DNA of 64,000 nucleotides from assembly GCF_055900595.2 (NCBI RefSeq), contig NZ_CM148325.1; one strand, 5' to 3'. Under the pieces are notes generated by a model, which was not told where the DNA came from, searched no databases, and saw nothing but the letters and a program-made list of their open reading frames with translations. A program made the position numbers and the translations under genes. Of the stretch, positions 3,823 to 16,378 are shown piece by piece. Within the stretch, counting starts at the first letter, position 1. Each line of letters begins with the position of its first letter.

Positions 3823-5151
3823 CTGATGAATCCCCTAATGATTTTGGTAAAAATCATTAAGTTAAGGTGGATACACATCTTGTCATATGATCAAATGGTT
3901 TCGCCAAAAATCAATAATCAGACAACAAAATGTGCGAACTCGATATTTTACACGACTCTCTTTACCAATTCTGCCCCGAATTACACTTAAAACGACTCAA
4001 CAGCTTAACGTTGGCTTGCCACGCCTTACTTGACTGTAAAACTCTCACTCTTACCGAACTTGGCCGTAACCTGCCAACCAAAGCGAGAACAAAACATAAC
4101 ATCAAACGAATCGACCGATTGTTAGGTAATCGTCACCTCCACAAAGAGCGACTCGCTGTATACCGTTGGCATGCTAGCTTTATCTGTTCGGGCAATACGA
4201 TGCCCATTGTACTTGTTGACTGGTCTGATATCCGTGAGCAAAAACGGCTTATGGTATTGCGAGCTTCAGTCGCACTACACGGTCGTTCTGTTACTCTTTA
4301 TGAGAAAGCGTTCCCGCTTTCAGAGCAATGTTCAAAGAAAGCTCATGACCAATTTCTAGCCGACCTTGCGAGCATTCTACCGAGTAACACCACACCGCTC
4401 ATTGTCAGTGATGCTGGCTTTAAAGTGCCATGGTATAAATCCGTTGAGAAGCTGGGTTGGTACTGGTTAAGTCGAGTAAGAGGAAAAGTACAATATGCAG
4501 ACCTAGGAGCGGAAAACTGGAAACCTATCAGCAACTTACATGATATGTCATCTAGTCACTCAAAGACTTTAGGCTATAAGAGGCTGACTAAAAGCAATCC
4601 AATCTCATGCCAAATTCTATTGTATAAATCTCGCTCTAAAGGCCGAAAAAATCAGCGCTCGACACGGACTCATTGTCACCACCCGTCACCTAAAATCTAC
4701 TCAGCGTCGGCAAAGGAGCCATGGATTCTAGCAACTAACTTACCTGTTGAAATTCGAACACCCAAACAACTTGTTAATATCTATTCGAAGCGAATGCAGA
4801 TTGAAGAAACCTTCCGAGACTTGAAAAGTCCTGCCTACGGACTAGGCCTACGCCATAGCCGAACGAGCAGCTCAGAGCGTTTTGATATCATGCTGCTAAT
4901 CGCCCTGATGCTTCAACTAACATGTTGGCTTGCGGGCGTTCATGCTCAGAAACAAGGTTGGGACAAGCACTTCCAGGCTAACACAGTCAGAAATCGAAAC
5001 GTACTCTCAACAGTTCGCTTAGGCATGGAAGTTTTGCGGCATTCTGGCTACACAATAACAAGGGAAGACTCACTCGTGGCTGCAACCCTGCTTACTCAAA
5101 ATCTATTCACACATGGTTACGTTTTGGGGAAATTATGAGGGGATCTCTCAG
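3823..5151 (+). mobile_element. IS10 insertion sequence (1329 bp)
   Basis: Begins CTGATGAATCCCCTAATGATTTTGGTAAAAATCATTAAG and ends ...ATTATGAGGGGATCTCTCAG (IS10 outside/inside ends from memory); length 1329 bp; encodes the transposase. Confidence 0.9.
3930..5138 (+). CDS. IS10 transposase
   Basis: 402-aa [70 protein letters not shown]..., recognised as Tn10/IS10 transposase. Confidence 0.9.
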
Positions 5152-5160
5152 TGCCAAGCA
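5152..5160. repeat. Right copy of the 9-bp IS10 target-site duplication (TGCCAAGCA)
   Basis: Same 9-mer as 3814..3822; removing IS10 plus one copy restores ...VNAKHYFSS... in frame. Confidence 0.8.
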
Positions 5161-6250
5161 CTACTTTTCCTCTAACGATGCAGATGATGGTGATACTACT
5201 TATGCCCGTCTTGGCTTCAAAGGTGAAACCCAAATCAACGATCAACTGACTGGTTTCGGTCAGTGGGAATATGAATTCAAAGGCAACCGCGCTGAATCTC
5301 AAGGTTCCTCCAAAGACAAAACCCGTCTTGCATTTGCAGGCCTGAAATTCGGTGACTACGGCTCAATCGATTACGGCCGTAACTACGGTGTAGCATACGA
5401 CATCGGTGCGTGGACTGACGTCCTGCCAGAATTCGGTGGTGATACCTGGACCCAAACAGATGTGTTCATGACTGGTCGCACTACTGGTGTTGCAACTTAT
5501 CGTAACAACGACTTCTTTGGTCTGGTCGATGGCCTGAACTTTGCTGCTCAGTATCAGGGTAAAAATGACCGCACTGACGTAACTGAAGCCAATGGTGATG
5601 GTTTCGGTTTCTCCACTACTTATGAGTATGAAGGATTCGGCGTGGGTGCAACCTATGCTAAATCAGATCGCACTGACGGTCAGGTCGCCTATGGTAAGAG
5701 CAAATTCAATGCCTCCGGCAAAAATGCGGAAGTATGGGCTGCAGGCCTGAAATATGATGCGAACAATATCTATCTGGCTACCACATATTCTGAAACTCAG
5801 AATATGACCGTTTTTGGTAATAACCATATTGCAAACAAAGCACAAAACTTTGAAGCAGTAGCACAATATCAGTTTGACTTCGGTCTGCGCCCATCTGTTG
5901 CTTACCTTCAGTCAAAAGGTAAAGACCTTGGTGTTCATGGTGACCGAGACTTAGTCAAGTATGTCGATGTCGGTGCTACTTACTACTTTAATAAAAACAT
6001 GTCCACTTTTGTTGATTACAAAATCAACTTAATTGACGATAGTAAGTTTACCAAAACAGCTGGTATTGATACTGATGACATCGTTGCTGTAGGTCTGGTT
6101 TACCAGTTCTAATCTGATTACGAAAAAGATATGTTGCGGGAGGCGTTGCCTCCCCAACATATAAGTGGCTCCCTCAAGCCACTTCCTTTAGAAGCACAAC
6201 CTTGCTTCTAACTATATAAACCTTCTGTTATATATTACCCTTTATTTTTG

Positions 6251-6275
6251 GGGGCGTCTCAACGCCCCATTTTTA
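6251..6275 (+). terminator. Rho-independent terminator downstream of nmpC
   Basis: GGGGCG-TCTCAA-CGCCCC hairpin followed by ATTTTTAATAATTTTT. Confidence 0.55.
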
Positions 6276-6301
6276 ATAATTTTTAGTAAACAATTGGCAT
6301 A

Positions 6302-6700
6302 TTAATTAGAGTTATTAACAACGATATCCATCTCTAACCGGATATCTAATGCCATTAACATCCCTTCAATTATGCCCTCAGCCTTTTGTAACCTTTTCCC
6401 GATATAACCATCAGAGCAGCAATGCTTACCTGCCAGTGACATGAATGTCATACCGACTACATAATAATCTACTAATAAATCGTGCAAATCGCTGTTGTTC
6501 TTTTTCAGACGGGCCATGCACCCGCAAATGATCATCGCGTCATCGTCACAACATTGCGGGCGAGATTTTACTTTTGAAGGAATTAATCCCTTAAAACCGG
6601 CGGCAATGGACGACCAGGTCACATCTTCATGATTATTAGCCGCCCACGCTCCCCAACGCTCAAGAACCATCTGAATATCACGCATCAACTTACTCCACAA
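6302..6700 (-). CDS. quuD: Late-gene antiterminator Q-like protein
   Basis: 132-aa ORF ...[18 protein letters not shown]...[36 protein letters not shown]...; Q position upstream of the lysis cassette; recognised as DLP12 QuuD. Confidence 0.75.
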
Positions 6701-6767
6701 AACTCAGACCAGAACGCCAATTACAAGCAAAAATCAACAAAACAGTATTAGTTGATTGTTATCTCTG

Positions 6768-6908
6768 ACTTCATACTCCTGCTCCTGTCAGTGTTTTGGC
6801 GTAATTCTTCAGTATTCGGTAATCGGTCAAAACAGAGCCGGGGAAACGATATAAGCGCAGACGCCCCCAGCGGTGGCGAAGAAGTTCTGCCATATTAAAC
6901 TCAAACAT
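6768..6908 (-). CDS. ylcG: Small prophage protein (YlcG-like), 46 aa
   Basis: Manual translation [45 protein letters not shown]; start overlaps the rusA stop. Confidence 0.4.
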
Positions 6909-7270
6909 CATTCATTCCCCATTTCGGTGATGGTCAGTTCCAGCCTCCCACCTTTGGTAACAGGCATCTTCACAACGCGGTAATCAACGACCTGAGCATC
7001 ATCCAGCCAGAAACCTGCTTTAGTGAGTGCGTCAAAAGCGGCTTTTTGCAGATTATCCAGGTCACGGCGACGGCGATCCGGCATGTGGCACTCAATGCGG
7101 ATTTTCACAGGCATAGCCAGGCCGATATCCAGCATTGCGTTTTTAATGATTCGGGCGACGTTATCGCGGTATGCCTGCCCCTCTGCGCTGACGTGCGTGC
7201 GCCCGCGATTATGGCGGTAATAGCGATTATTGCTCGGAGGCCAGGGTAGTGTGATGTGGTAAGTATTCAC
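6908..7270 (-). CDS. rusA: Holliday-junction resolvase RusA
   Basis: 120-aa [54 protein letters not shown]..., recognised as RusA. Confidence 0.9.
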
Positions 7271-7559
7271 GCCTTAATTACCCTCTCTTTCAGCCAGATA
7301 ACCTGCGTTCTCGCCATACCTTCCAGCGCGCATTCTTTTGCATATCCAGCGTCAACAAAATGCGTGCGGCGGTCGATTTCGTCGTGGCAGGCAGAACATG
7401 CAATGGTGGCAATCAGGTCTGGCGGTTTGATACCGGTACCGCACAATCCAGCCAGCCGGATATGTGCCAGTACAGACGTCTCAGAATTGCCATTACATAC
7501 GCCAGGGATTCTTACCTGGCATTCCCGACCACGCGCTGCTTTTCTCAAATCAGCCATGA
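7267..7559 (-). CDS. ybcO: Nin-region protein YbcO (Cys-rich, putative nuclease)
   Basis: [62 protein letters not shown]...; start at the internal ATG of the track ORF. Confidence 0.8.
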
Positions 7560-7720
7560 TTCCTCCTTGCTGCCAGTCGCAACCATTTTTTATCAACCAG
7601 GCTAGCGGTATATCCGAGCAGTGTTGGTATTTCGGATGGCTTCAGCTCAGGCTTACGCTTACGACGATTTGATACTCTGTAGATGTGTCCGTTCATGACA
7701 CGAATAAGCGGTGTAGCCAT
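7547..7720 (-). CDS. ninE: NinE-like small protein
   Basis: Manual translation [56 protein letters not shown]; start overlaps the ybcN stop, stop overlaps the ybcO start. Confidence 0.55.
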
Positions 7721-8175
7721 TACGCCTCCTGCTTGTCGCGGAGCAGCTGGAACTCGCAGCTCTGCGGAATAGTCAGGTGGCAGCCAATATTCATCGCCCA
7801 GGCTTCAACCTTACACAGGAAGACATACATCTCTCCGGTATCAAGATTGGAGGTATGGCGTAACGACTGGATAGTGGTGATATCACCGGTTACGACATCA
7901 ACCAGGTCTTTGGTTTCATAACCGAGATATGTGTGTTTGAGAGCATCTTTTACCCAAGCTGGAGTGGCGAACGTTTTACCCCTGCTGATGAGGTATTCAC
8001 TGATTTCGCTGTACCACATGTGGCTGAGTGCATTCTGGGAAAGACTGCGTTTCTCACGCCACGGTTTAAGCACCAGGCGAAAGCATTTGCCCTCCTCCAG
8101 ATAAGGCTGGATCTGCCGACCGATAGCGGTGAAGTTGCCGCGATGTAATTTGATGCCGTCTTGTGAGAGGTTCAC
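7720..8175 (-). CDS. ybcN: NinB-family recombination protein
   Basis: 151-aa ORF (GTG start) [55 protein letters not shown]..., recognised as DLP12 YbcN. Confidence 0.85.
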
Positions 8176-8208
8176 GCTTCCCCTCCGCAGAGGTCAAACG
8201 TTGGATGC

Positions 8209-8333
8209 AAAAAAACGCAGGTGCATTTCTGCATCTGTGAAGGGAGAAGAGAGTTTGGATTGTATGTGCGCATAAACGTCCCCGTTTAGCGCAGAAGTCA
8301 CCGGAGTTGTTCAGGCTCCGATGACATGATTAT
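8209..8333. repeat. Direct repeat A (about 125 bp) flanking the accessory cassette
   Basis: AAAAAAACGCAGGTGCATTTCTGCATCTGTGAAGGGAGAAGAGAGTTTGGATTGT... aligns with 10596..10720, with about 16 substitutions and one 1-bp indel by manual alignment. Confidence 0.75.
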
Positions 8334-8359
8334 GGCGGGTTGATTATTGAAAATCAAAG

Positions 8360-9037
8360 TTAATCGTACGAGTCGAGTATGTTCTGAAACGCCCAGCCAT
8401 CCTCCTTAGGAACACAAGACAGAATCGAATGAATTAGATCCCCTGCGGAAAGAAGTAACCCTTCTTGCCCTTCAAGAAAATAACGCCATTTAGGTCCATG
8501 AAACAGATTGTTCCGTAACCGGAAACAAACGAACAAGCACACTGCAAGCTGAGTCTCAGGCTCGGTTGTCATAGCTTGCATGGCTGAAAAACAGTCATCT
8601 CTCGCCTTTTGAGAGGTGTGGTGTAATTCCCCGCATAGGCTTTCAAACTTGCTTTTATCATTTACATAGCGTTCTGAAAAAAAATCGTATGTACACTTGA
8701 GAACCCCCAGATCCACAACCTCCATTTGCAAAAGACGATTGGCATATTTCGCACTTTTGCCTTGCCCCCCAGCGCAATTAAGAAGTAGAGACTCGAAGAA
8801 AGAGAAGTACAAAAAATAACGATTAACGGCGGTAAGGATAGATGGGGTAATCCTGCCTTCTGCATTAATCAACTCGTCAAATTCTGATGAAAAATCCAAC
8901 TGTTCATCCTTTTCCATTATATTCGGCCATTTATTGATATTGCACATCAGTCGCTCTTGGCAATGACAGGTTTGCTCTCGGTAATGTCTCAAACGCCCCA
9001 AAAAGTAGTCTCGCAAATGCTCTAGTTGCTCGCGCAT
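8360..9037 (-). CDS. Hypothetical protein with a HEPN-like Rx4H motif (possible abortive-infection RNase)
   Basis: 225-aa ORF; C-terminal region contains ...CLFVCFRLRNNLFHGPKWRYF... (R-x4-H); AT-rich; weak RBS, start codon uncertain (alternative MEKDEQLDF...). Confidence 0.45.
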   Translation of the reverse strand: MREQLEHLRDYFLGRLRHYREQTCHCQERLMCNINKWPNIMEKDEQLDFSSEFDELINAEGRITPSILTAVNRYFLYFSFFESLLLNCAGGQGKSAKYANRLLQMEVVDLGVLKCTYDFFSERYVNDKSKFESLCGELHHTSQKARDDCFSAMQAMTTEPETQLAVCLFVCFRLRNNLFHGPKWRYFLEGQEGLLLSAGDLIHSILSCVPKEDGWAFQNILDSYD

Positions 9038-9161
9038 AACAACTTCGGCGATAACCGGCTATTCGGTCGTTCTTTATACGCTACGCTTGAAGGCGCAAGG
9101 CCAACGCTTACCTTGTCACGTTCCTATTGCGGTTTTGCTGCAATGTTCCTGTCAGTCTGAC

Positions 9162-9189
9162 ATAAAAAACCCCTCAATCATCTGAGGGG
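9162..9189 (-). terminator. Rho-independent terminator after the 66-aa gene
   Basis: On the minus strand CCCCTCA-GATGAT-TGAGGGG followed by TTTTTTAT. Confidence 0.55.
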
Positions 9190-9560: not shown

Positions 9561-10169
9561 CTATTGCAATCTAGCCTGACGCAAATGTGGCAATACCCTG
9601 CTCCACTTATTATCCTGCCAAGGCTGGAATTTTACATGTGCCGTTTTTCTGGCAAGGATTTCGCGCGCCTTATGTAGTATCTGGGGATATTCTTGCTCGA
9701 TAGAAGTAAAGCGACCGGCTTCGCGGTGTTCCGCAACCTGAAGAAGTGGAGTAACGTTCTGGCAGGCGGTTAACATCGTATCACTTGCTCGCCATAACCA
9801 AGCAAGTGTGCAAAGTTCGTTATCAGTGAATTGTTTTGTGATCGGGGATTGTTGAACTTCTCGATCGAGAATATCCAGAACCCAGCGGCGGAACTCTTTG
9901 GCTACAGGAGTTCGTGCAAACATGGCGATCAAATGGGCTCCGCGAAGGCTAAATACTCGAGACTCCTGCATTCCACGAGGGGTGGTCACTTTGACCACCC
10001 TTGTCATCATATCTGTAAATTCATCTGAGTGACGAGAGTAAATGCGCTGAACTGCTTTATCGTCCGCATATTCCAGAGCTAAACCAACTTCAGTGGCAGT
10101 AAGCCAAATTCTGTTATTGTGGCAAATTGGGGTAAACGTCGTTTTGTGGAATGCTAATTGAGTAGTCAT
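9561..10169 (-). CDS. Bro-N-like / phage antirepressor-family protein
   Basis: 202-aa ORF with N-terminal ...FHKTTFTPICHNNRIWLTATEVGLALEY...RGMQESRVFSLRGAHLIAMFARTPVAKEFRRWVLDIL...; good SD (GAGGTGA) 5 nt upstream of ATG. Confidence 0.55.
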   Translation of the reverse strand: MTTQLAFHKTTFTPICHNNRIWLTATEVGLALEYADDKAVQRIYSRHSDEFTDMMTRVVKVTTPRGMQESRVFSLRGAHLIAMFARTPVAKEFRRWVLDILDREVQQSPITKQFTDNELCTLAWLWRASDTMLTACQNVTPLLQVAEHREAGRFTSIEQEYPQILHKAREILARKTAHVKFQPWQDNKWSRVLPHLRQARLQ

Positions 10170-10331
10170 AGTATCACCTCATCAGGTTAACCATCACCAC
10201 CAACGACGCCAATCGACTGGTGGTGAACTGTGCAAGGTTGGCGTAACCGGCTACTCAAACCCGGCGCTCCCGAAGAAGCCCTCACACAGCCCACCATAAT
10301 TTGGGCGTAGCCGTGCTTAGCGCATAAAAAA

Positions 10332-10346
10332 ACCGCTTAACGCGGT
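10332..10346 (-). terminator. Possible rho-independent terminator upstream of the Bro-N-like gene
   Basis: Minus strand ACCGC-GTTAA-GCGGT followed by TTTTTTTAT; short stem. Confidence 0.35.
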
Positions 10347-10432
10347 ATGCGTTGAGTAGTATTCCGGGACGCCAATCCCGTGTGCCGATTTTGCGGCAAC
10401 GCACAGAATATAGCGCCGGATAAATAATGTCG

Positions 10433-10621
10433 TCAACCCTTGCAAATGGGTGGCGCGATGATCACTACTACCACTATAACCGCTCCAACTGTTGCAACTA
10501 CTTTAGGCCAAGACATCAAGATTTCCATATCACCTTTAGCTGCGAAACGAACAGAGGTTCCCATCTCTATACTGCCGAGGCCAAACACCGAATATAAAAA
10601 ACCGCAGGTGCATTTCTGCAT
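10433..10621 (-). CDS. Possible small hydrophobic peptide (about 31 aa from the internal start MEILMSWPKVVATVGAVIVVVVIIAPPICKG)
   Basis: Track ORF of 62 aa; internal ATG preceded by AAAGGTGAT; hydrophobic C-terminal segment; starts inside direct repeat B. Confidence 0.2.
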   Translation of the reverse strand: MQKCTCGFLYSVFGLGSIEMGTSVRFAAKGDMEILMSWPKVVATVGAVIVVVVIIAPPICKG

Positions 10622-10720
10622 CTATGACGGGAGAAGATAGTTTGGATTGTGTGGGCTCATAAACTCCCCGTTTGGTGCAGTAGTCACCGTAGTTGTTCAT
10701 ATTCTGATGACATGATAATT
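10596..10720. repeat. Direct repeat B (about 125 bp), partner of 8209..8333
   Basis: AAAAAACCGCAGGTGCATTTCTGCATCTATGACGGGAGAAGATAGTTTGGATTGT..., same orientation as repeat A. Confidence 0.75.
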
Positions 10721-10917
10721 TCCTATTGAATAGAAAAAATTAACACTACTCATTCTTATGACTAGAAAAAGCAATCATGCTAATAATCATTGTTGTTCCA
10801 GTTCCAAATGCAGCGAAATAATCACTAATATTTTTTCTACCGGTTTCGACTTTGATGCTATATTCTGCTAACACCTAACTAACACTACGTTTCACACAGC
10901 AATTACATGGAAATAAC

Positions 10918-11265
10918 ATGACTATCAAAGCGACTGACATAGAGATTCTTCATCGTTATGCTGAAGGGGTAATGGAACGTTCTAACCATCATGCAAAAAA
11001 TGTTGGTGCAGCCGCTCTTACATTGCTAGGAGGTGTTATCTGGAAAGCCCTGCCCGGCTCAATCGAGATAAGAACGTATAACGGAAGTCTTGCAAATATG
11101 GTGTGGTGGCAAAGCGAAAGAACATTAAAAAATTATGCAATCTCATACAACCATAATTCATGTGAAATTGAAATGAGAGATGAATCAGTCAAAGGTGCTG
11201 TATTATTTAGCATTTCCAACGAAACCACTCCAGAAAAAATATTATCACAGCTTTCTGAGCTTTAA
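10918..11265 (+). CDS. Hypothetical protein (115 aa), oriented against the surrounding early operon
   Basis: ORF MTIKATDIEILHRYAEGVMERSNHHAKNVGAAALTLLGGVIWKALPGSIEIRTYNGSLANMVWWQSERTL...; AT-rich; no family recognised. Confidence 0.45.
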   Translation: MTIKATDIEILHRYAEGVMERSNHHAKNVGAAALTLLGGVIWKALPGSIEIRTYNGSLANMVWWQSERTLKNYAISYNHNSCEIEMRDESVKGAVLFSISNETTPEKILSQLSEL

Positions 11266-11270
11266 TTAAA

Positions 11271-11288
11271 GGCGGTGCTAACACCGCC
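11271..11288 (-). terminator. Hairpin terminator between P and the 115-aa gene (tR2-like position)
   Basis: GGCGGTG-CTAA-CACCGCC; on the minus strand followed by TTTAATTAAA. Confidence 0.45.
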
Positions 11289-11469
11289 CATACCATTACT
11301 CCACATCTTACGCAACTTGATAATTATGCTCTATTAAATACCCACAATATTTCATCAATGCATGGGTCAGCTATAAAATGTTTACCGTGGTAATTCCTGT
11401 TTTCGCAACATCTCAAAAGAACAATAAACACTGTATTTCTTCAAGTAACGAAGAATCTTTCTTTGCCCG

Positions 11470-12171
11470 TCATACACTTGCTCCTTTCAGCCCAAACTTA
11501 GCTTTGATTTCTGCGATCTTCGCCAGAGCCTGTGCACGATTTAGAGGTCTACCGCCCATGACAGGAAGTTGTTTTACTGGTTCAGGTATCGCCTCACCAC
11601 GGTTAATTCGCGCGGTCATACAGGTCAGCTCATCGGCAGCTTTACGCCGTAATTCCGCGTCAGTCAGCGCATTGGCCCGCATGTTCTGGTACAGGTTGGT
11701 AACCAACCAGTAGTGCGCGTTTGATTTCCATGGATAAGACTCTGCGTCCGGATACAGGCCACGCTTCCGGCAATACTCGTAAACCATATCAACCAGCTCG
11801 CTAGCGTTTGGCAGCCCGGCGGTAACGGATGCTTCTTCCCGGCACCAGGCAACAAACTGCCCGGGTGATGGCAGGAATGGTCGATTCTGCCGACGGGCTA
11901 CGCGCATTCCAGCGTTAACCTGTTCCATCGTGGTGATCCCATTTTCCCGGAAAGCCAGAACCCACTGGCGGCGGATTTCGTTCAGTTCGTTCTGGTCACG
12001 GTTAGCCAGGCTCGCAGGGAAAGTTGCCAGTAACTGGCTGAACACACCGTTGATGATCTGCGCTACCTGCTGTACCTGCGGCTTTTCGTCGTACTGTTCC
12101 GGCATGTTGTTGGCGATCCGACGCATCTGCTCACGGTCAAAGTTAACCATCTGTGCGGCGATGTTTTTCAT
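11470..12171 (-). CDS. P: Replication protein P (DnaB helicase loader), lambda-like
   Basis: 233-aa ORF MKNIAAQMVNFDREQMRRIANNMPEQYDEKPQVQQVAQIINGVFSQLLATFPASLANRDQNE..., recognised as near-identical to lambda P. Confidence 0.92.
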   Translation of the reverse strand: MKNIAAQMVNFDREQMRRIANNMPEQYDEKPQVQQVAQIINGVFSQLLATFPASLANRDQNELNEIRRQWVLAFRENGITTMEQVNAGMRVARRQNRPFLPSPGQFVAWCREEASVTAGLPNASELVDMVYEYCRKRGLYPDAESYPWKSNAHYWLVTNLYQNMRANALTDAELRRKAADELTCMTARINRGEAIPEPVKQLPVMGGRPLNRAQALAKIAEIKAKFGLKGASV

Positions 12172-13097
12172 AGATCAACCCCGTAAATCCAGTCTGTGTT
12201 TGTCAGGTCGAGTTTTGGTTTGCTGGCTGTCACGCCTGCCTGTTGCTTGTTACGGTTGATTTCGAGCTGGGTCCACTTGTCGCGGAGTTTGGCCGGACTT
12301 AGCACGTTACCGGACCAGAAGTTGTCCTGGCATGCCCAGCGGAACAGCACGCACATGTCGCGGTGGTTACGTCCGTCACGTTCACGCATCAGGCGGATAT
12401 CGTTAGCCCACCCTGCAAAATTCGGTTTTCTGGCTGATGGCGCGATGGTCTTCACCATGTCAAACATCCACTCTGCGGCGGTCAGGTCTTCTGCTGTCCC
12501 CCACTTGCTGCCGCTCTGAATCGCAGCATCCGGTTTCACCACAGGAAGGTCGTTTTCTGGCTGATCAGAGGATTCGCCAGAATTCTCGGACGAATAAGGT
12601 TTTATATTGTCTTTTGTTAGTTTGTCTTTTGTGTTTACCTGATTCGGGTAAACGCCTTTACCTGATTTGGGTAAACTTTTCTTACCTGATTCAGGTAAAT
12701 TTACCTCTTTCAGGTAAACTTTATTTTTCTTACCTGATTCGGGTAATGTTGACCATTCACTGACCACATTATTAATACCGATATTCCGCCCGCTCTGAAT
12801 CAAAATCCCACGCTTTACCAGAACACTTTTTGCAGCAGAACACTTGTGCGGTAATATCTCGGTCAATCCAGACAGTTGCTCGTTGCTCACCCAATCCAGT
12901 TTTTTATTAAAGCCATATGTTTTGCGCATGACAGCCAGGAAGACCAGAAGCTGGTGCTGTGTTAATCCGGCCAGCATCACAGCTTCCAGCAACTCATTTG
13001 CAATGCGCGTATAACCATCATCGAGATCTGCCACGCGCGGCTCCTTTTGTGCCGCATCCGGCACTGGAAAATTGAATATCTCAGCAGTGTTTGCCAT
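12168..13097 (-). CDS. O: Replication initiator O (lambda-like C-terminus, divergent iteron-binding N-terminus)
   Basis: Start taken at MANTAEIFNFP... (SD GGGAGGA upstream) inside track ORF 12168..13187; C-terminus ...WMFDMVKTIAPSARKPNFAGWANDIRLMRERDGRNHRDMCVLFRWACQDNFWSGNVLSPAKLRDKWTQLEINRNKQQAGVTASKPKLDLTNTDWIYGVDL matches lambda O. Confidence 0.85.
   Translation of the reverse strand: MANTAEIFNFPVPDAAQKEPRVADLDDGYTRIANELLEAVMLAGLTQHQLLVFLAVMRKTYGFNKKLDWVSNEQLSGLTEILPHKCSAAKSVLVKRGILIQSGRNIGINNVVSEWSTLPESGKKNKVYLKEVNLPESGKKSLPKSGKGVYPNQVNTKDKLTKDNIKPYSSENSGESSDQPENDLPVVKPDAAIQSGSKWGTAEDLTAAEWMFDMVKTIAPSARKPNFAGWANDIRLMRERDGRNHRDMCVLFRWACQDNFWSGNVLSPAKLRDKWTQLEINRNKQQAGVTASKPKLDLTNTDWIYGVDL
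12635..12746. repeat. Phage replication origin: five iterons (TTACCTGATTCGGGTAAA-like inverted repeats) inside the O gene, next to an AT-rich stretch
   Basis: Copies at about 12635, 12658, 12682, 12701 and 12730, each with TTACC...GGTAA arms; AT-rich run at 12600..12634. Confidence 0.65.
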
Positions 13098-13183
13098 AAT
13101 TCCTCCCGCAATGAGTGTGTTACGATTTGCACCTGAAAGTCGGTTCTGTTCCAGCAGACCGGCTTTCGCCATTTCTGAACCTG

Positions 13184-13723
13184 TCATATCGCCCCCAGCA
13201 TGGTAGTAACCATCGCCATCAATGGACCAGCCAGATCTGGGTCCACACGAAACATCGATACAATACCTTCACTAATTTCCTTCAGTTTCTGGTGGCGTGG
13301 TGCGTTGAGAATGACAGCCTGTTTTGCCTCACTGAGTTCCTTTTCCATTTCAGCCAGCCGAGCTATGAAGCTATCCTGCTCAACCAGGTGGCCGCGATAT
13401 TCCAGCGGTAGTACCGCCAGAATTGCCGGGGTCAGTTCACGCACGTTATTTCGGTATTTTTCAGAATCGAATTTGTTATCGAGGAAGCGGAACAGCTTCT
13501 GGCGTGCACGGCTGACATCATCAGGGAAATCGATGGTGCCGCCGCCCTGCTCCCGATACTCATTCACAATGAGTGCGGCAACGACATCCTGATTATCTAC
13601 AGCCGACCAGGCGCGGACGGCATCACGGATTTTTTCGTGGCCTGGAGCTTGTTTTGTTTGAGAACGATTTATCACCGCAGTCGGGCTAAATCCGCTAGTC
13701 TGTTGGTATGTAAGTGGTTGCAT
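13184..13723 (-). CDS. CII-position regulator, YdaT-like
   Basis: 179-aa ORF with strong SD (AAAGGAG); ...VNEYREQGGGTIDFP...LTPAILAVLPLEYRGHL... resembles Rac YdaT (EEYLRQGGGELPL / LIPAILAILPRELRHRL, from memory). Confidence 0.55.
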   Translation of the reverse strand: MQPLTYQQTSGFSPTAVINRSQTKQAPGHEKIRDAVRAWSAVDNQDVVAALIVNEYREQGGGTIDFPDDVSRARQKLFRFLDNKFDSEKYRNNVRELTPAILAVLPLEYRGHLVEQDSFIARLAEMEKELSEAKQAVILNAPRHQKLKEISEGIVSMFRVDPDLAGPLMAMVTTMLGAI

Positions 13724-14912: not shown

Positions 14913-15638
14913 ATGGAAGAACGTGGGAATTACCTAATAGACCCCCTAGAAGTAATTGGTTCTGGCGGTTTTGGCCTTGTAGAAAAAATAAGGTTATATA
15001 ACTCACAAAGAAAAATTTGTGGTCTATATGCCAGAAAAATTTTACGACCTGATGCAACAGATCCTGAACTCTTTACCAGATTTGAACGAGAAGTAAGATA
15101 TCAAACTGAATGCCTGCATACTAATATTGTCCAAATATTCATATGCCACTTACAGAATGCTCAGCCTTGGTTCGTAATGGAACTAGCAGAAACAAATCTT
15201 GAAGAAGAAATAAAAAGTGGAACTCTTACAAAGGCTGAAAAAATCTCTATTGTAAAAATGGTACTAAATGCCGTCGGATGGATTCATAAGAAAGGATATC
15301 TTCATCGGGATATAAAACCACTAAATGTACTAAAATTTAAAGATGGAATTTATAAGTTATCTGACTTCGGCCTTGCAAAAAATGTGTCACCAGATGCCAA
15401 TACACAGCTATTAACACAAATTGGCCAATACCCCGCTACTCCTAAATACTTTGATTACAACGTTTTCCTCAACGGATATTCAAAACAATCAGATATATAT
15501 TCAATTGGTATTTTAATTGAAGAATTAAATATTGATGGTTTTGATGATATAATAAACAAATGTACGCATAGACAACTTAACAAAAGATTCCTGACCGTAG
15601 AGCAGATCTTTGAGGAATTGGAGTTGAAACGCTTATGA
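14913..15638 (+). CDS. Hanks-type (eukaryotic-like) Ser/Thr protein kinase, compact catalytic domain only
   Basis: 241 aa; glycine-rich loop GSGGFG; catalytic loop HRDIKPLN; DFG motif SDFGLAK; SD AGGA 7 nt upstream; AT-rich. Confidence 0.85.
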   Translation: MEERGNYLIDPLEVIGSGGFGLVEKIRLYNSQRKICGLYARKILRPDATDPELFTRFEREVRYQTECLHTNIVQIFICHLQNAQPWFVMELAETNLEEEIKSGTLTKAEKISIVKMVLNAVGWIHKKGYLHRDIKPLNVLKFKDGIYKLSDFGLAKNVSPDANTQLLTQIGQYPATPKYFDYNVFLNGYSKQSDIYSIGILIEELNIDGFDDIINKCTHRQLNKRFLTVEQIFEELELKRL

Positions 15639-16378
15639 TTAGCATACTCTCATCATCCATATTTTCTGTACCAAAACATAATGGCAGGGAAAATCAAGAT
15701 AGCGTGCTTTATCCACTTCAAACACCAAATGGTTATCTTATGGCTATAGCTGATGGGGTTGGTGGTTATAAAGGAGGAAAAGAAGCATCTGCAGCAGTAA
15801 TAAATCATTTGTATAGTATTAAAGACAGCTTCACTCATGAAGACAATGTCTTATCCTTACTTAAGACCCTACAAGAAAAGGTGGCATCTCTTTCGTCAGT
15901 TGATAAAGAATTAGCATCTGCTGCTACAACTTTAACAATGTGCCTACTTCACAATCAAGGTCTAACAATTATACATGTAGGTGACTGTCGTGTTTATTTA
16001 AAAAATGGAAATAAGCTAATCCAATTAACAACAGATCATACTCAACATCAAATGTTGATAGATAGCGGTATTTATACAGCTCGACAGCTCAAAAATGCAA
16101 AAGGTAAAAATATTATTACAACTGCACTTGCTGCCAAGATCCCCCTTCAACATCAAGTCATAAATATTGATAAAGATGAACTTCCTCTTGACGATGGTGT
16201 TCTATCTCTATTCATCATGTCTGATGGCGCGCATACCTTTTGGGAGCAACGCCCACGATTTTCTTACCGTACATTGTCAACCGCATCAAGGTTTGCCTCC
16301 AGCCTAATGCGAAGAATAGAGACAAAAGGCCCGACTGACGATTATTCTCTTATAGCGGTAAATGTAAAGTATTTGTAA
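15635..16378 (+). CDS. PP2C-family (PPM) Ser/Thr protein phosphatase
   Basis: 247 aa; AIADGVGG and HVGDCRVYL metal-binding motifs, ...FIMSDGAHT...; start ATG overlaps the kinase stop (ATGA). Confidence 0.8.
   Translation: MISILSSSIFSVPKHNGRENQDSVLYPLQTPNGYLMAIADGVGGYKGGKEASAAVINHLYSIKDSFTHEDNVLSLLKTLQEKVASLSSVDKELASAATTLTMCLLHNQGLTIIHVGDCRVYLKNGNKLIQLTTDHTQHQMLIDSGIYTARQLKNAKGKNIITTALAAKIPLQHQVINIDKDELPLDDGVLSLFIMSDGAHTFWEQRPRFSYRTLSTASRFASSLMRRIETKGPTDDYSLIAVNVKYL

What the first reader, a model, noticed from the sequence alone, without database searches (positions are those of the whole stretch)
10918..11288. Orphan 115-aa gene oriented against the early rightward operon, immediately downstream of P
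A 115-aa ORF (MTIKATDIEILHRYAEGVMERSNHH...) sits on the opposite strand to O-P and the nin genes, is AT-rich, and is followed by a strong hairpin (GGCGGTG-CTAA-CACCGCC) that would act as a tR2-like terminator for the convergent P transcript. An oppositely oriented gene inside an otherwise co-directional phage operon is the hallmark of an independently expressed moron. I could not assign it to any family from sequence alone.
Basis: partly seen in the sequence, partly recalled or inferred. Interest (0 to 1): 0.45.

Follow-up and report, generated by a model that had tools for sequence, protein, structure and literature searches.

The report
Backwards-facing Vch_cass14-family gene in prophage
The "orphan" is a real, selectively conserved gene of a known but functionally uncharacterised family (Vch_cass14, first seen in a Vibrio integron) that has replaced the lambda ren gene and faces against the phage early operon, an ordinary add-on gene ("moron") whose company in other genomes hints at a role in phage-bacterium conflict.

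Summary
A 115-codon ORF (10918-11265, +) lies convergent with P. It is AT-rich (39% GC against 54% for P) and is followed by an 18-nt GC hairpin (11271-11288).

The gene is under purifying selection (pN 0.15-0.24 against pS 0.71-0.86). A roughly 770-bp mosaic segment (10690-11459) replaces ren directly after P.

Orthologues in six other prophage lineages all face against their neighbours. Most keep a hairpin right after the stop codon; three stem pairs of the four aligned sequences change on both sides, and the T-tract usually lies on the early-operon strand.

More distant homologues sit beside AbiU, PDC-S06 and a SoFic-like Fic protein, in the P2 cos-proximal hotspot, near integrases and methylases, and in integron cassettes. 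No partner gene is conserved.

Best reading: a moron expressed in the lysogen that encodes a small dimeric ligand-binding protein, probably used in conflict between mobile elements. The function itself is unproven.

Interest is modest. This is a new member of a known kind.

The parts
10918..11265 (+). Coding sequence, 115 aa, Vch_cass14-family protein (RefSeq WP_000152742.1)
11271..11288 (.). GC-rich hairpin (7-bp stem, 4-nt loop) five bases after the stop codon. The T-rich tail TTTAATT is on the minus strand only, so it is a likely terminator or insulator for the convergent O-P transcript and a 3' stem for the gene's own mRNA.
   Evidence: Sequence. Fold z about -3.4 on both strands. Paired in all 28 cells of 4 distinct orthologue sequences, with 3 of 7 pairs changed on both sides; 11 of 500 shuffles did as well. 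The consensus terminator scan did not call it.
10856..10864 (+). Candidate extended -10 promoter element TGcTATATT, 54-59 nt upstream of the ATG. The -35 (TCTACC, 10836-10841) is poor.
   Evidence: Top-scoring site in my own scan. An identical TGcTATATT sits at the equivalent place in Citrobacter loci L008 and L009. The tool's sigma-70 scan did not list it. Inference only.
10909..10912 (+). Shine-Dalgarno-like GGAA, 5 nt before the ATG
   Evidence: Sequence. AGGGG, AGGAA and AGGA occur at the same spacing in the orthologues.
10690..11459 (.). Mosaic segment specific to the carriers: AT-rich leader, gene, hairpin and a 170-bp spacer. It occupies the place of ren.
   Evidence: E. coli H14 matches the window up to 10689 and again from 11460; in between it has a ren pseudogene, a gene RefSeq annotates as TagO, and a hypothetical gene. 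3462 genomes share only the part from 11460 rightwards. The 701-bp core is at least 99% identical in 180 genomes.
11441..11473 (-). Remnant of ren: MTGKERFFVT*, whose start overlaps the P stop codon. Homology to other prophages ends at window 11460, a few codons in.
   Evidence: Translation. Junction position. The identity of MTGK with the lambda Ren N-terminus is from my own knowledge.
10844..10867 (-). Remnant of the 5' end of a divergent holE/theta-like gene (..QNIASKSK.., with no start codon). It contains the candidate -10 element.
   Evidence: Frame translation, compared with the intact theta genes that diverge from the Vch_cass14 gene in Citrobacter loci L012, L013 and L050 (MSDFNIAAKSQ..).
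10553..10743 (.). Second copy of the roughly 190-bp segment that normally precedes ninB. It forms the left border of the module; the other copy is at 8166-8357.
   Evidence: Direct repeats D1 and D2, 76-78% identity. Cross-matches.
11470..12171 (-). Replication gene P (context: the convergent neighbour)
   Evidence: ORF. RefSeq annotation of the identical region.

Best explanation
A single-gene moron. A roughly 770-bp AT-rich module has replaced ren just after P in a DLP12-type lambdoid prophage. It carries one gene of the Vch_cass14 family (PF18315) pointing against the early rightward operon.

The gene is most likely transcribed from its own extended -10 promoter (TGcTATATT, 10856-10864) while pR is repressed, that is, in the lysogen. 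The conserved hairpin just after its stop codon stops or insulates the converging O-P transcript. During N-antiterminated lytic growth, antisense read-through would be expected to silence the gene.

The product is a small cytoplasmic protein with the 3IMO alpha+beta sandwich fold. It presumably forms a homodimer. It keeps the deep hydrophobic tunnel (about 15 A) and the polar mouth (Y14, R21, N60, with the near-invariant H24, H25, Y77 and H79). So it most likely acts by binding, or acting on, an amphipathic small molecule with a linear tail, and not by binding nucleic acid.

The same gene turns up alone in integron cassettes, in prophage variable slots, in the P2 cos-proximal hotspot, and directly beside single-gene abortive-infection or defence proteins. 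Its most probable role is therefore a host-protective function in conflict between mobile elements, such as superinfection or phage defence, supplied by the resident prophage.

Shown: gene identity, fold, selection, module borders, conserved orientation and conserved hairpin. Inferred: promoter, expression in the lysogen, dimer, ligand class and defence role.
For: - **Family and fold:**
- **Ligand pocket retained:** Sureshan et al. 2013 (PMC3548836) list 17 tunnel-lining residues and a 3-residue polar mouth. Most are identical or conservatively hydrophobic in the window protein; V5, I15 and A37 change in size and A22 becomes S. Y14, R21/K, H24, H25, N60, Y77 and H79 are each kept in 87-95% of 87 homologues.
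- **Basic surface not conserved:** family pI runs from 4.9 to 10.4, and the window protein has pI 6.06 and net charge -2.
- **Purifying selection:** pN 0.15-0.24 against pS 0.71-0.86. Close pairs differ by 4:0, 3:0 and 1:0 synonymous to non-synonymous changes.
- **Moron anatomy:** it replaces ren. GC is 0.36-0.39 against 0.54 for P.
- **Orientation:** opposite to the flanking genes in E. coli and in six further prophage lineages at 72-78% identity, with DnaB-, DnaT/IstB- or O-type replication modules. One of these lies in an int-proximal slot.
- **Hairpin:** conserved, with changes on both sides of three stem pairs. The T-tract lies on the early-operon strand in the window and in L012, L013, L050 and L052.
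- **Conflict-related company:** 35 bp after AbiU in Serratia. 18 bp after PDC-S06 and overlapping a phospholipase C gene. Upstream of a 164-aa gene and a SoFic-like Fic gene in four alphaproteobacteria. 1.6 kb beyond the P2-like portal gene, in the region Rousset et al. 2022 describe as an anti-phage hotspot. Integrases, methylases, HipA and HigB-like genes are among 147 neighbour ORFs.
- **Other defence-type cargo in the same prophage:** a Ser/Thr kinase similar to PD-T4-6 and Stk2 next to cI.
Against: - No PADLOC or NCBIfam model matches the protein, and no paper in the library assigns the family a function.
- The defence association is descriptive. It rests on about 20 loci and has no background control.
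- A soluble 115-aa protein with no recognisable effector domain is unusual for a stand-alone defence gene and fits an inhibitor or sponge better.
- The promoter is only a consensus match. It lies in a remnant of a neighbouring gene, so its conservation could be inheritance rather than function. The tool's own scan did not list it.
- The hairpin lacks a U-tract on the gene's own strand, and the terminator scan missed it.
- None of 50,697 sequenced phage isolates carries the gene.
- The ligand in 3IMO was never identified.
Confidence: 0.45

Rival explanations
1. Counter-defence rather than defence. The protein is a small inhibitor or sponge that neutralises a host or rival-element immune system, for example by sequestering a lipid-like signal or by binding an Abi-type effector. 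Chromosomal copies beside AbiU, PDC-S06 or Fic would then be their natural brakes, and orphan copies in prophages and integrons would disarm such systems.
For: - It is small, soluble, presumably dimeric, pocket-bearing and has no recognised catalytic domain, like known anti-defence proteins (my own knowledge).
- It is tightly coupled and co-directional with three different toxic or defence proteins.
- It stands alone on mobile elements.
- It sits at the locus of ren, which protects lambda from Rex exclusion (my own knowledge).
Against: - It is oriented against the early operon, so it would be poorly expressed just when an infecting phage needs counter-defence.
- One conserved pocket is unlikely to neutralise unrelated effectors such as AIPR/AbiU, an AAA_13 ATPase and Fic.
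- No partner is conserved.
- It is absent from all sequenced phage isolates, lytic or temperate.
Confidence: 0.2
2. A lysogenic-conversion gene unrelated to phage conflict. The protein binds or modifies a hydrophobic small molecule (a fatty acid, a bile or detergent-like compound, or an acyl signal) and gives the host a stress, niche or signalling advantage. It travels on mobile elements only as generic cargo.
For: - A conserved hydrophobic tunnel with a carboxylate-binding mouth: acetate is bound by R21 and Y14, and an unidentified linear molecule occupies the tunnel in 3IMO. These features are conserved across the family.
- The near-invariant His and Tyr residues could be catalytic.
- Many family members come from soil and water bacteria and from integron cassettes.
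- Among the listed E. coli carriers, cattle and human STEC isolates are frequent.
Against: - There are no metabolic or transport genes consistently nearby. The neighbours are integrases, methylases, toxins and defence genes.
- There is no signal peptide or membrane segment that would suggest envelope protection (sequence).
Confidence: 0.2
3. A phage-internal regulatory device. The main point of the module is the convergent promoter and hairpin. Together they attenuate or insulate transcription between P and the nin region, acting as a tR2 substitute or an antisense brake on P. The ORF is secondary.
For: - The hairpin is conserved with paired changes, and its T-tract is on the early-operon strand.
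- The gene's own strand has no U-tract, so its transcript could run antisense into P.
Against: - The protein is strongly conserved at the amino-acid level while synonymous sites are saturated.
- The same protein occurs without this hairpin or context in Serratia, alphaproteobacteria, plasmids, integrons and an int-proximal prophage slot.
Confidence: 0.07
4. A decaying or functionless hitch-hiker, or a chance ORF in AT-rich junk left by recombination.
For: - The surroundings are full of remnants: a ren stub, theta stubs and a duplicated linker.
- The host prophage is DLP12-like, and its porin gene abuts a transposase gene.
Against: - Intact and at least 99% identical in 180 complete genomes, and seen on at least 1000 contigs.
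- Purifying selection across genera.
- A high-confidence fold identical to a solved structure.
Confidence: 0.03

Closest known systems
Vch_cass14 (PDB 3IMO; Pfam PF18315), an integron cassette protein of Vibrio cholerae (Sureshan et al. 2013, PMC3548836)
   Different: It is carried as a prophage moron with its own putative promoter and hairpin, and I saw no attC-like site beside it (read by eye only). There is a two-residue insertion after beta3. The protein is slightly acidic (pI 6.06), whereas 3IMO has a strongly basic sheet surface. Neither protein has a known function.
Lambda ren (the gene directly after P)
   Same: Same slot. The module starts a few codons into a ren remnant that overlaps the P stop codon. 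Ren is also a dispensable accessory gene tied to phage exclusion, as it gives resistance to Rex (my own knowledge).
   Different: Unrelated sequence and opposite strand. Ren is part of the early operon, whereas this gene must use its own promoter.
Classical prophage morons and lysogen-expressed exclusion genes (lambda rexAB, sieB, bor and lom; HK97 morons; P2 old and tin)
   Same: An extra gene between neighbours that are adjacent in related phages. It has foreign base composition and putative promoter and terminator flanks. A homologue sits in the P2 old/tin hotspot.
   Different: No phenotype is known, and the gene is a single small soluble protein. The terminator-like hairpin serves the opposite strand better than the gene's own strand.
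Small ligand-sequestering anti-defence proteins (Tad1, Tad2 and Acb2 type sponges)
   Same: Only the general idea: a small oligomeric protein whose main feature is a deep ligand pocket, carried by mobile elements (the comparison is from my own knowledge).
   Different: No sequence or fold similarity was found. The pocket is hydrophobic and linear, not a nucleotide-binding site. The gene orientation argues against early expression during infection.

Membership tests
Pfam PF18315 (VCH_CASS14) | Score above the family's gathering threshold | tested here: met
   71.7 bits against a cut-off of 26.7, E 5.7e-20, covering residues 12-104 of the protein and positions 2-92 of the 97-position model.
Pfam PF18315 (VCH_CASS14) | Two-layer alpha+beta sandwich with the order beta1-alpha1-alpha2-beta2-beta3-beta4-beta5-beta6-alpha3 | tested here: met
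Pfam PF18315 (VCH_CASS14) | Deep hydrophobic pocket with a polar mouth (Y14, R21, N60) | tested here: met
   The mouth residues are identical. The tunnel positions are identical or still hydrophobic, except A22 to S (alignment; residue list; column counts). This was judged from sequence. No coordinates were available to measure the cavity.
Pfam PF18315 (VCH_CASS14) | Homodimer through the helix faces | not testable with these tools
   Only a monomer was modelled. The paper reports that helix-face hydrophobic residues are conserved in its small set of homologues.
Moron (autonomous extra transcription unit in a prophage) | An extra gene between genes that are adjacent in related phages | tested here: met
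   Other E. coli prophages have P followed by ren and then the nin region. Here 10690-11459 is inserted in place of ren.
Moron (autonomous extra transcription unit in a prophage) | Base composition different from the flanks | tested here: met
   GC is 0.36-0.39 against 0.54 for P and 0.51 for ninB.
Moron (autonomous extra transcription unit in a prophage) | Own promoter | tested here: inconclusive
   Extended -10 TGcTATATT at 10856-10864 with a weak -35. It is conserved in Citrobacter loci L008 and L009, but the standard scan did not list it, and it lies inside a remnant of a neighbouring gene.
Moron (autonomous extra transcription unit in a prophage) | Own terminator | tested here: inconclusive
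   A conserved hairpin follows the stop codon, but the U-tract is on the opposite strand.
Moron (autonomous extra transcription unit in a prophage) | Expressed from the repressed prophage | not testable with these tools
   No expression data are available. The orientation against pR-driven transcription is consistent with it.
Integron gene cassette | An adjacent attC recombination site, and usually no promoter | not tested
   Reading the 204 bp downstream, I saw only the simple 18-nt hairpin and no extended imperfect palindrome ending in GTTRRRY. No attC search tool was run. The context is a lambdoid prophage.
Known anti-phage defence system (PADLOC catalogue) | Match to a catalogued defence protein model | tested here: not met
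   No PADLOC hit at E up to 0.1.
Known anti-phage defence system (PADLOC catalogue) | Recurrent location next to defence genes or in defence hotspots | tested here: inconclusive
   Adjacent to AbiU, PDC-S06 and a SoFic-like Fic protein, and present in the P2 hotspot. The sample is only about 20 loci and there is no background control.
Known anti-phage defence system (PADLOC catalogue) | Protects cells from phage | not testable with these tools
   This needs plaque assays.
Type II toxin-antitoxin pair (antitoxin reading) | A conserved adjacent toxin partner | tested here: not met
   There is no co-directional neighbour in the window. The downstream and upstream neighbours of homologues are unrelated to each other.

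The most novel reading that the evidence does not exclude
PF18315 proteins are an unrecognised single-gene module of the arms race between phages, hosts and other mobile elements. In this reading a small dimer captures or modifies a lipid-like or linear amphipathic molecule, and so either blocks superinfecting phages or switches neighbouring abortive-infection effectors (AbiU, PDC-S06, Fic) on or off. That would explain why the same gene circulates between integron cassettes, prophage variable slots, the P2 hotspot and defence islands.
Probability: 0.25. Interest if true: 0.65.

Novelty: new member of a known kind. Interest (0 to 1): 0.35.

Why it matters
On its own this is a routine prophage add-on gene that RefSeq already labels. 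Its value is as a lead.

A structural-genomics family with a solved structure, an unidentified bound ligand and no known function now has a consistent genomic signature. It occurs as a stand-alone gene, usually facing against its neighbours, in variable slots of several prophage lineages, including prophages of Shiga-toxin-producing E. coli O26, O103 and O157. It also occurs in the P2 hotspot and beside single-gene abortive-infection proteins.

That makes it a cheap and well-defined candidate for phage-challenge and ligand-identification experiments. If it scores, it would add a ligand-binding mini-protein to the defence or counter-defence repertoire and give a function to a class of integron cassettes.

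Tried and rejected
- **Domain fusions.** Longer family members carry no informative second domain. One has a transposase-type HTH region fused to a truncated Vch_cass14 domain, which I read as an insertion-sequence artefact.
- **Conserved partner gene.** Downstream and upstream neighbours are unrelated across loci, apart from close relatives.
- **Nucleic-acid binding through the basic sheet of 3IMO.** Rejected as a family trait, because pI ranges from 4.9 to 10.4 and the window protein is slightly acidic.
- **The 42-aa ORF at 10746-10874 as a real gene.** Rejected. In another frame this region holds a start-less stub of a theta-like gene.
- **Inverted repeat 10623-10643 / 11454-11474 as a sign of an invertible segment.** Rejected as chance level. 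It has 17 of 21 matches, about one such match is expected in 4 kb by my estimate, and the other linker copy lacks the similarity.
- **Literature.** There are no hits for PF18315 or WP_000152742, and Vch_cass14 appears in only one paper. The supplements of two relevant screens do not mention it.
- **Isolated phages.** No DNA or protein match in 50,697 phage records.
- **Broad genome scan with the 87-sequence alignment.** It failed because no conserved stretch was available. It was repeated with 18 closer sequences.

Full report

Yes. The ORF listing gives a 115-aa ATG-initiated ORF at 10918-11265 on the + strand, with the quoted translation. The surrounding genes are all on the minus strand:
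- a YdaT-like gene (13184-13723);
- O (12168-13187);
- P (11470-12171);
- ninB/ybcN (7720-8175);
- Q (6302-6700).

They belong to a DLP12-type lambdoid prophage, as the RefSeq annotation of near-identical regions shows.

The ORF has 38.8% GC, against 54.1% for P. The hairpin GGCGGTG-CTAA-CACCGCC lies at 11271-11288. It folds better than almost all dinucleotide shuffles on either strand, with z about -3.4.

**2. What is the gene?**

It is not an orphan.
- It matches Pfam PF18315 (VCH_CASS14) at 71.7 bits against a gathering cut-off of 26.7.
- It matches PHROG 5959 (function unknown) end to end.
- It matches the crystal structure 3IMO, the Vibrio cholerae integron cassette protein Vch_cass14, at E 1.3e-17.
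- An AlphaFold model built on 87 homologues has pLDDT 97.4 and the element order beta-alpha-alpha-beta5-alpha.
- RefSeq already calls the identical protein (WP_000152742.1) "Vch_cass14 family protein" in one genome and "hypothetical protein" in others.
- The exact sequence occurs on at least 1000 contigs and in 180 of 5426 complete E. coli genomes. It is always chromosomal and at least 99% identical over 701 bp.
- No sequenced phage isolate carries it.

**3. Is it under coding constraint?**

Against Citrobacter and Serratia orthologues, the proportion of non-synonymous differences is 0.15-0.24, while synonymous sites are near saturation at 0.71-0.86. Closely related pairs differ only by synonymous changes: 4:0, 3:0 and 1:0.

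**4. Anatomy of the module**

*Right border.* 3462 genomes share the 3' end of P but lose similarity to the window at 11460. In the listed rows the gene next to P is annotated as ren. The window keeps only a ren stub, MTGKERFFVT*, whose start overlaps the P stop codon.

*Left border.* E. coli H14 carries P, a ren pseudogene, a gene RefSeq annotates as TagO, and a hypothetical gene. It then regains similarity with the window at 10689 and below.

The carrier-specific segment is therefore about 10690-11459. Its left edge is a second copy (10553-10743) of the roughly 190-bp stretch that normally precedes ninB (8166-8357).

Directly upstream of the gene, on the other strand, is a start-less stub (..QNIASKSK..) of a holE/theta-like gene. 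In Citrobacter prophages an intact theta gene diverges from the Vch_cass14 gene at the same spot. The ancestral unit was thus a divergent pair, and the roughly 60 bp upstream of the ATG travelled with the gene.

That stretch holds an extended -10, TGcTATATT (10856-10864). It is the best promoter-like site in my scan, and it is identical in Citrobacter freundii-complex loci. The -35 is poor and the tool's stock scan does not list the site. The promoter therefore remains an inference. A GGAA/AGGA-type ribosome-binding site lies 5-6 nt before the ATG in all orthologues.

**5. The hairpin**

In four distinct orthologue sequences every one of the 28 stem cells is paired. Three of the seven pairs have changed on both sides (G-C to U-A, C-G to U-A, A-U to G-C). 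Only 11 of 500 shuffles do as well, and all slid registers do worse. The sample is small.

The T-rich tail is on the minus strand in the window (TTTAATT). It is also on the early-operon strand in L012 and L013 (ATTTTT), L050 (TTGATTT) and L052 (TTTTTTT). It overlaps the last codons and the stop of the gene. The gene's own strand has no U-tract, except for a short TTT in L052.

For the gene's own mRNA it is at best a weak terminator or a 3' stabiliser. The stock terminator scan missed it, probably because a G-U extension of the stem uses up the first T.

**6. Orientation is a conserved property**

In every prophage orthologue examined the gene points against both flanking genes:
- C. freundii-complex loci L008-L011;
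- C. koseri and related loci L012-L014;
- IMG/VR loci L050, L051 and L052.

These have different replication modules (O with an IstB-type loader, DnaB, DnaT with an IstB-type loader), and L051 sits in a different, int-proximal slot. This is the expected signature of a unit with its own expression signals. Such a unit works best when the early operons are silent.

**7. Where else the family lives**

A full HMMER pass over 1.84 billion representatives finds only 282 clusters, almost all stand-alone proteins of about 113 aa. Longer members add no informative domain.

Contexts of homologues:

| Homologue | Context |
|---|---|
| Serratia marcescens (67% identical to the window protein) | 35 bp downstream of an AIPR protein that matches PADLOC AbiU at 6e-53 |
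| A metagenome-assembled genome | 18 bp downstream of a PDC-S06 candidate defence ATPase (4e-196), overlapping a phospholipase C gene, next to an integrase |
| Four alphaproteobacteria | followed by a 164-aa gene and a Fic protein that matches SoFic |
| P2-like viral contig (63% identical) | 1.6 kb beyond the portal gene, in the cos-proximal gpA-gpQ region that Rousset et al. 2022 showed to be an anti-phage hotspot |
| Other loci | integrases, type II and MmeI methylases, UvrD-like helicases, HipA and HigB-like toxins |

No neighbour is conserved across loci, so the gene works alone. This is guilt by association from about 20 loci without a background control. It is suggestive and no more.

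**8. What the protein probably does**

Sureshan et al. 2013 describe 3IMO as follows:
- It is a dimer formed through its helix faces.
- It has a deep hydrophobic tunnel about 15 A long.
- The tunnel holds an unidentified linear molecule.
- The tunnel has a polar mouth (Y14, R21, N60) that binds acetate.

In the window protein the mouth is identical, and most of the tunnel positions are identical or still hydrophobic. Across 87 homologues Y14, R21/K, H24, H25, N60, Y77 and H79 are each kept in 87-95% of sequences.

The basic sheet surface noted for 3IMO is not a family trait. pI runs from 4.9 to 10.4, and the window protein has pI 6.06. The conserved function is therefore centred on the pocket: binding or chemistry on an amphipathic molecule with a linear tail and probably an anionic head. 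This last point is my inference from the acetate and the tunnel. The protein has no signal peptide or membrane segment.

**9. Verdict**

Best explanation (confidence 0.45): a lysogen-expressed single-gene moron that has displaced ren. It encodes a Vch_cass14-family ligand-binding dimer, and its most probable role is host-protective in conflicts between mobile elements.

Rivals:
- counter-defence inhibitor or sponge (0.20);
- a conversion gene acting on a hydrophobic small molecule unrelated to phages (0.20);
- a mainly RNA-level insulator (0.07);
- functionless remnant (0.03, contradicted by selection and fold).

No function is published for the family in the searchable library, and no PADLOC or NCBIfam model covers it.

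**10. Novelty and score**

The family, the structure and the annotation already exist, and reverse-oriented morons in the nin region are commonplace. What is new is modest:
- the family assignment for this locus;
- the exact module borders and the displacement of ren;
- the conserved counter-orientation and covarying hairpin across prophage lineages;
- the recurrent company of abortive-infection and defence genes.

I rate it a new member of a known kind, with interest 0.35. There is about a one-in-four chance that it marks a genuinely new mini defence or counter-defence module, which would deserve about 0.65.

Noticed in passing
window 10216-10413 (-) and 9561-10169 (-): Rfam finds a C4 antisense RNA (72.7 bits), the Hfq-binding sRNA IsrK (60.7 bits) and the C4 target a1b1 (40.6 bits, just under threshold). 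They sit directly upstream of a BRO-N/P22AR_C antirepressor-like gene. Together they form a P1/P7 immI-type antirepressor control module inside the nin region.
   Followed up: partly
window 8166-8357 and 10553-10743: A direct repeat of about 190 bp at roughly 77% identity. It is the segment that normally precedes ninB. The two copies bracket a 2.2-kb insert that holds the antirepressor module, a 66-aa gene, a theta pseudogene and a 185-aa gene. It looks like a recombination linker for swapping modules.
   Followed up: partly
window ~8965-9163 (-) and 8360-9037 (-): A holE/theta-like pseudogene with an internal stop and a frameshift runs into the listed 225-aa ORF. The real product probably starts at M41 (8917) and is 185 aa long. 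It has an R-x4-H (RNNLFH) motif reminiscent of HEPN but no Pfam or PADLOC hit. In strain E2865 the same slot holds an annotated HEPN-domain gene with a partner gene.
   Followed up: partly
window 14913-15638 (+) and 15635-16378 (+): Directly downstream of the cI-like repressor and on the same strand lies a Ser/Thr protein kinase with PADLOC hits to PD-T4-6, Stk2 and mad6. Its end overlaps the start of a PP2C phosphatase gene. This looks like a lysogen-expressed exclusion pair in the rexAB-equivalent position.
   Followed up: partly
window 3930-6112 (+): An nmpC-type porin gene (5135-6112) abuts a DDE transposase gene (3930-5138), as in DLP12, where nmpC is interrupted by an insertion sequence (the DLP12 comparison is from my own knowledge).
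   Followed up: no
window 11441-11473 (-): A ten-codon stub of ren (MTGKERFFVT*) overlaps the P stop codon and marks the recombination junction of the module.
   Followed up: yes
L053:4543-6348 (IMG/VR metagenome viral contig): A homologue 63% identical to the window protein sits in the cos-proximal hotspot of a P2-like phage, next to a 392-aa P-loop protein with weak LeoBC/LeoA similarity. This could be an untested hotspot system.
   Followed up: partly
L030, L031, L033, L034 (alphaproteobacterial genomes), about 6000-7590: A recurrent co-directional cluster of a Vch_cass14 homologue, a 164-aa protein of unknown function and a Fic-domain protein similar to SoFic. In L024 and L026 the downstream gene is instead a 180-aa protein that looks like a PD-(D/E)xK nuclease by eye.
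   Followed up: partly
L009:3119-4213 (Citrobacter prophage): A 364-aa protein with a pore-forming colicin domain is also encoded against the early operon in the same nin-region neighbourhood. This shows the interval collects reverse-oriented cargo.
   Followed up: no
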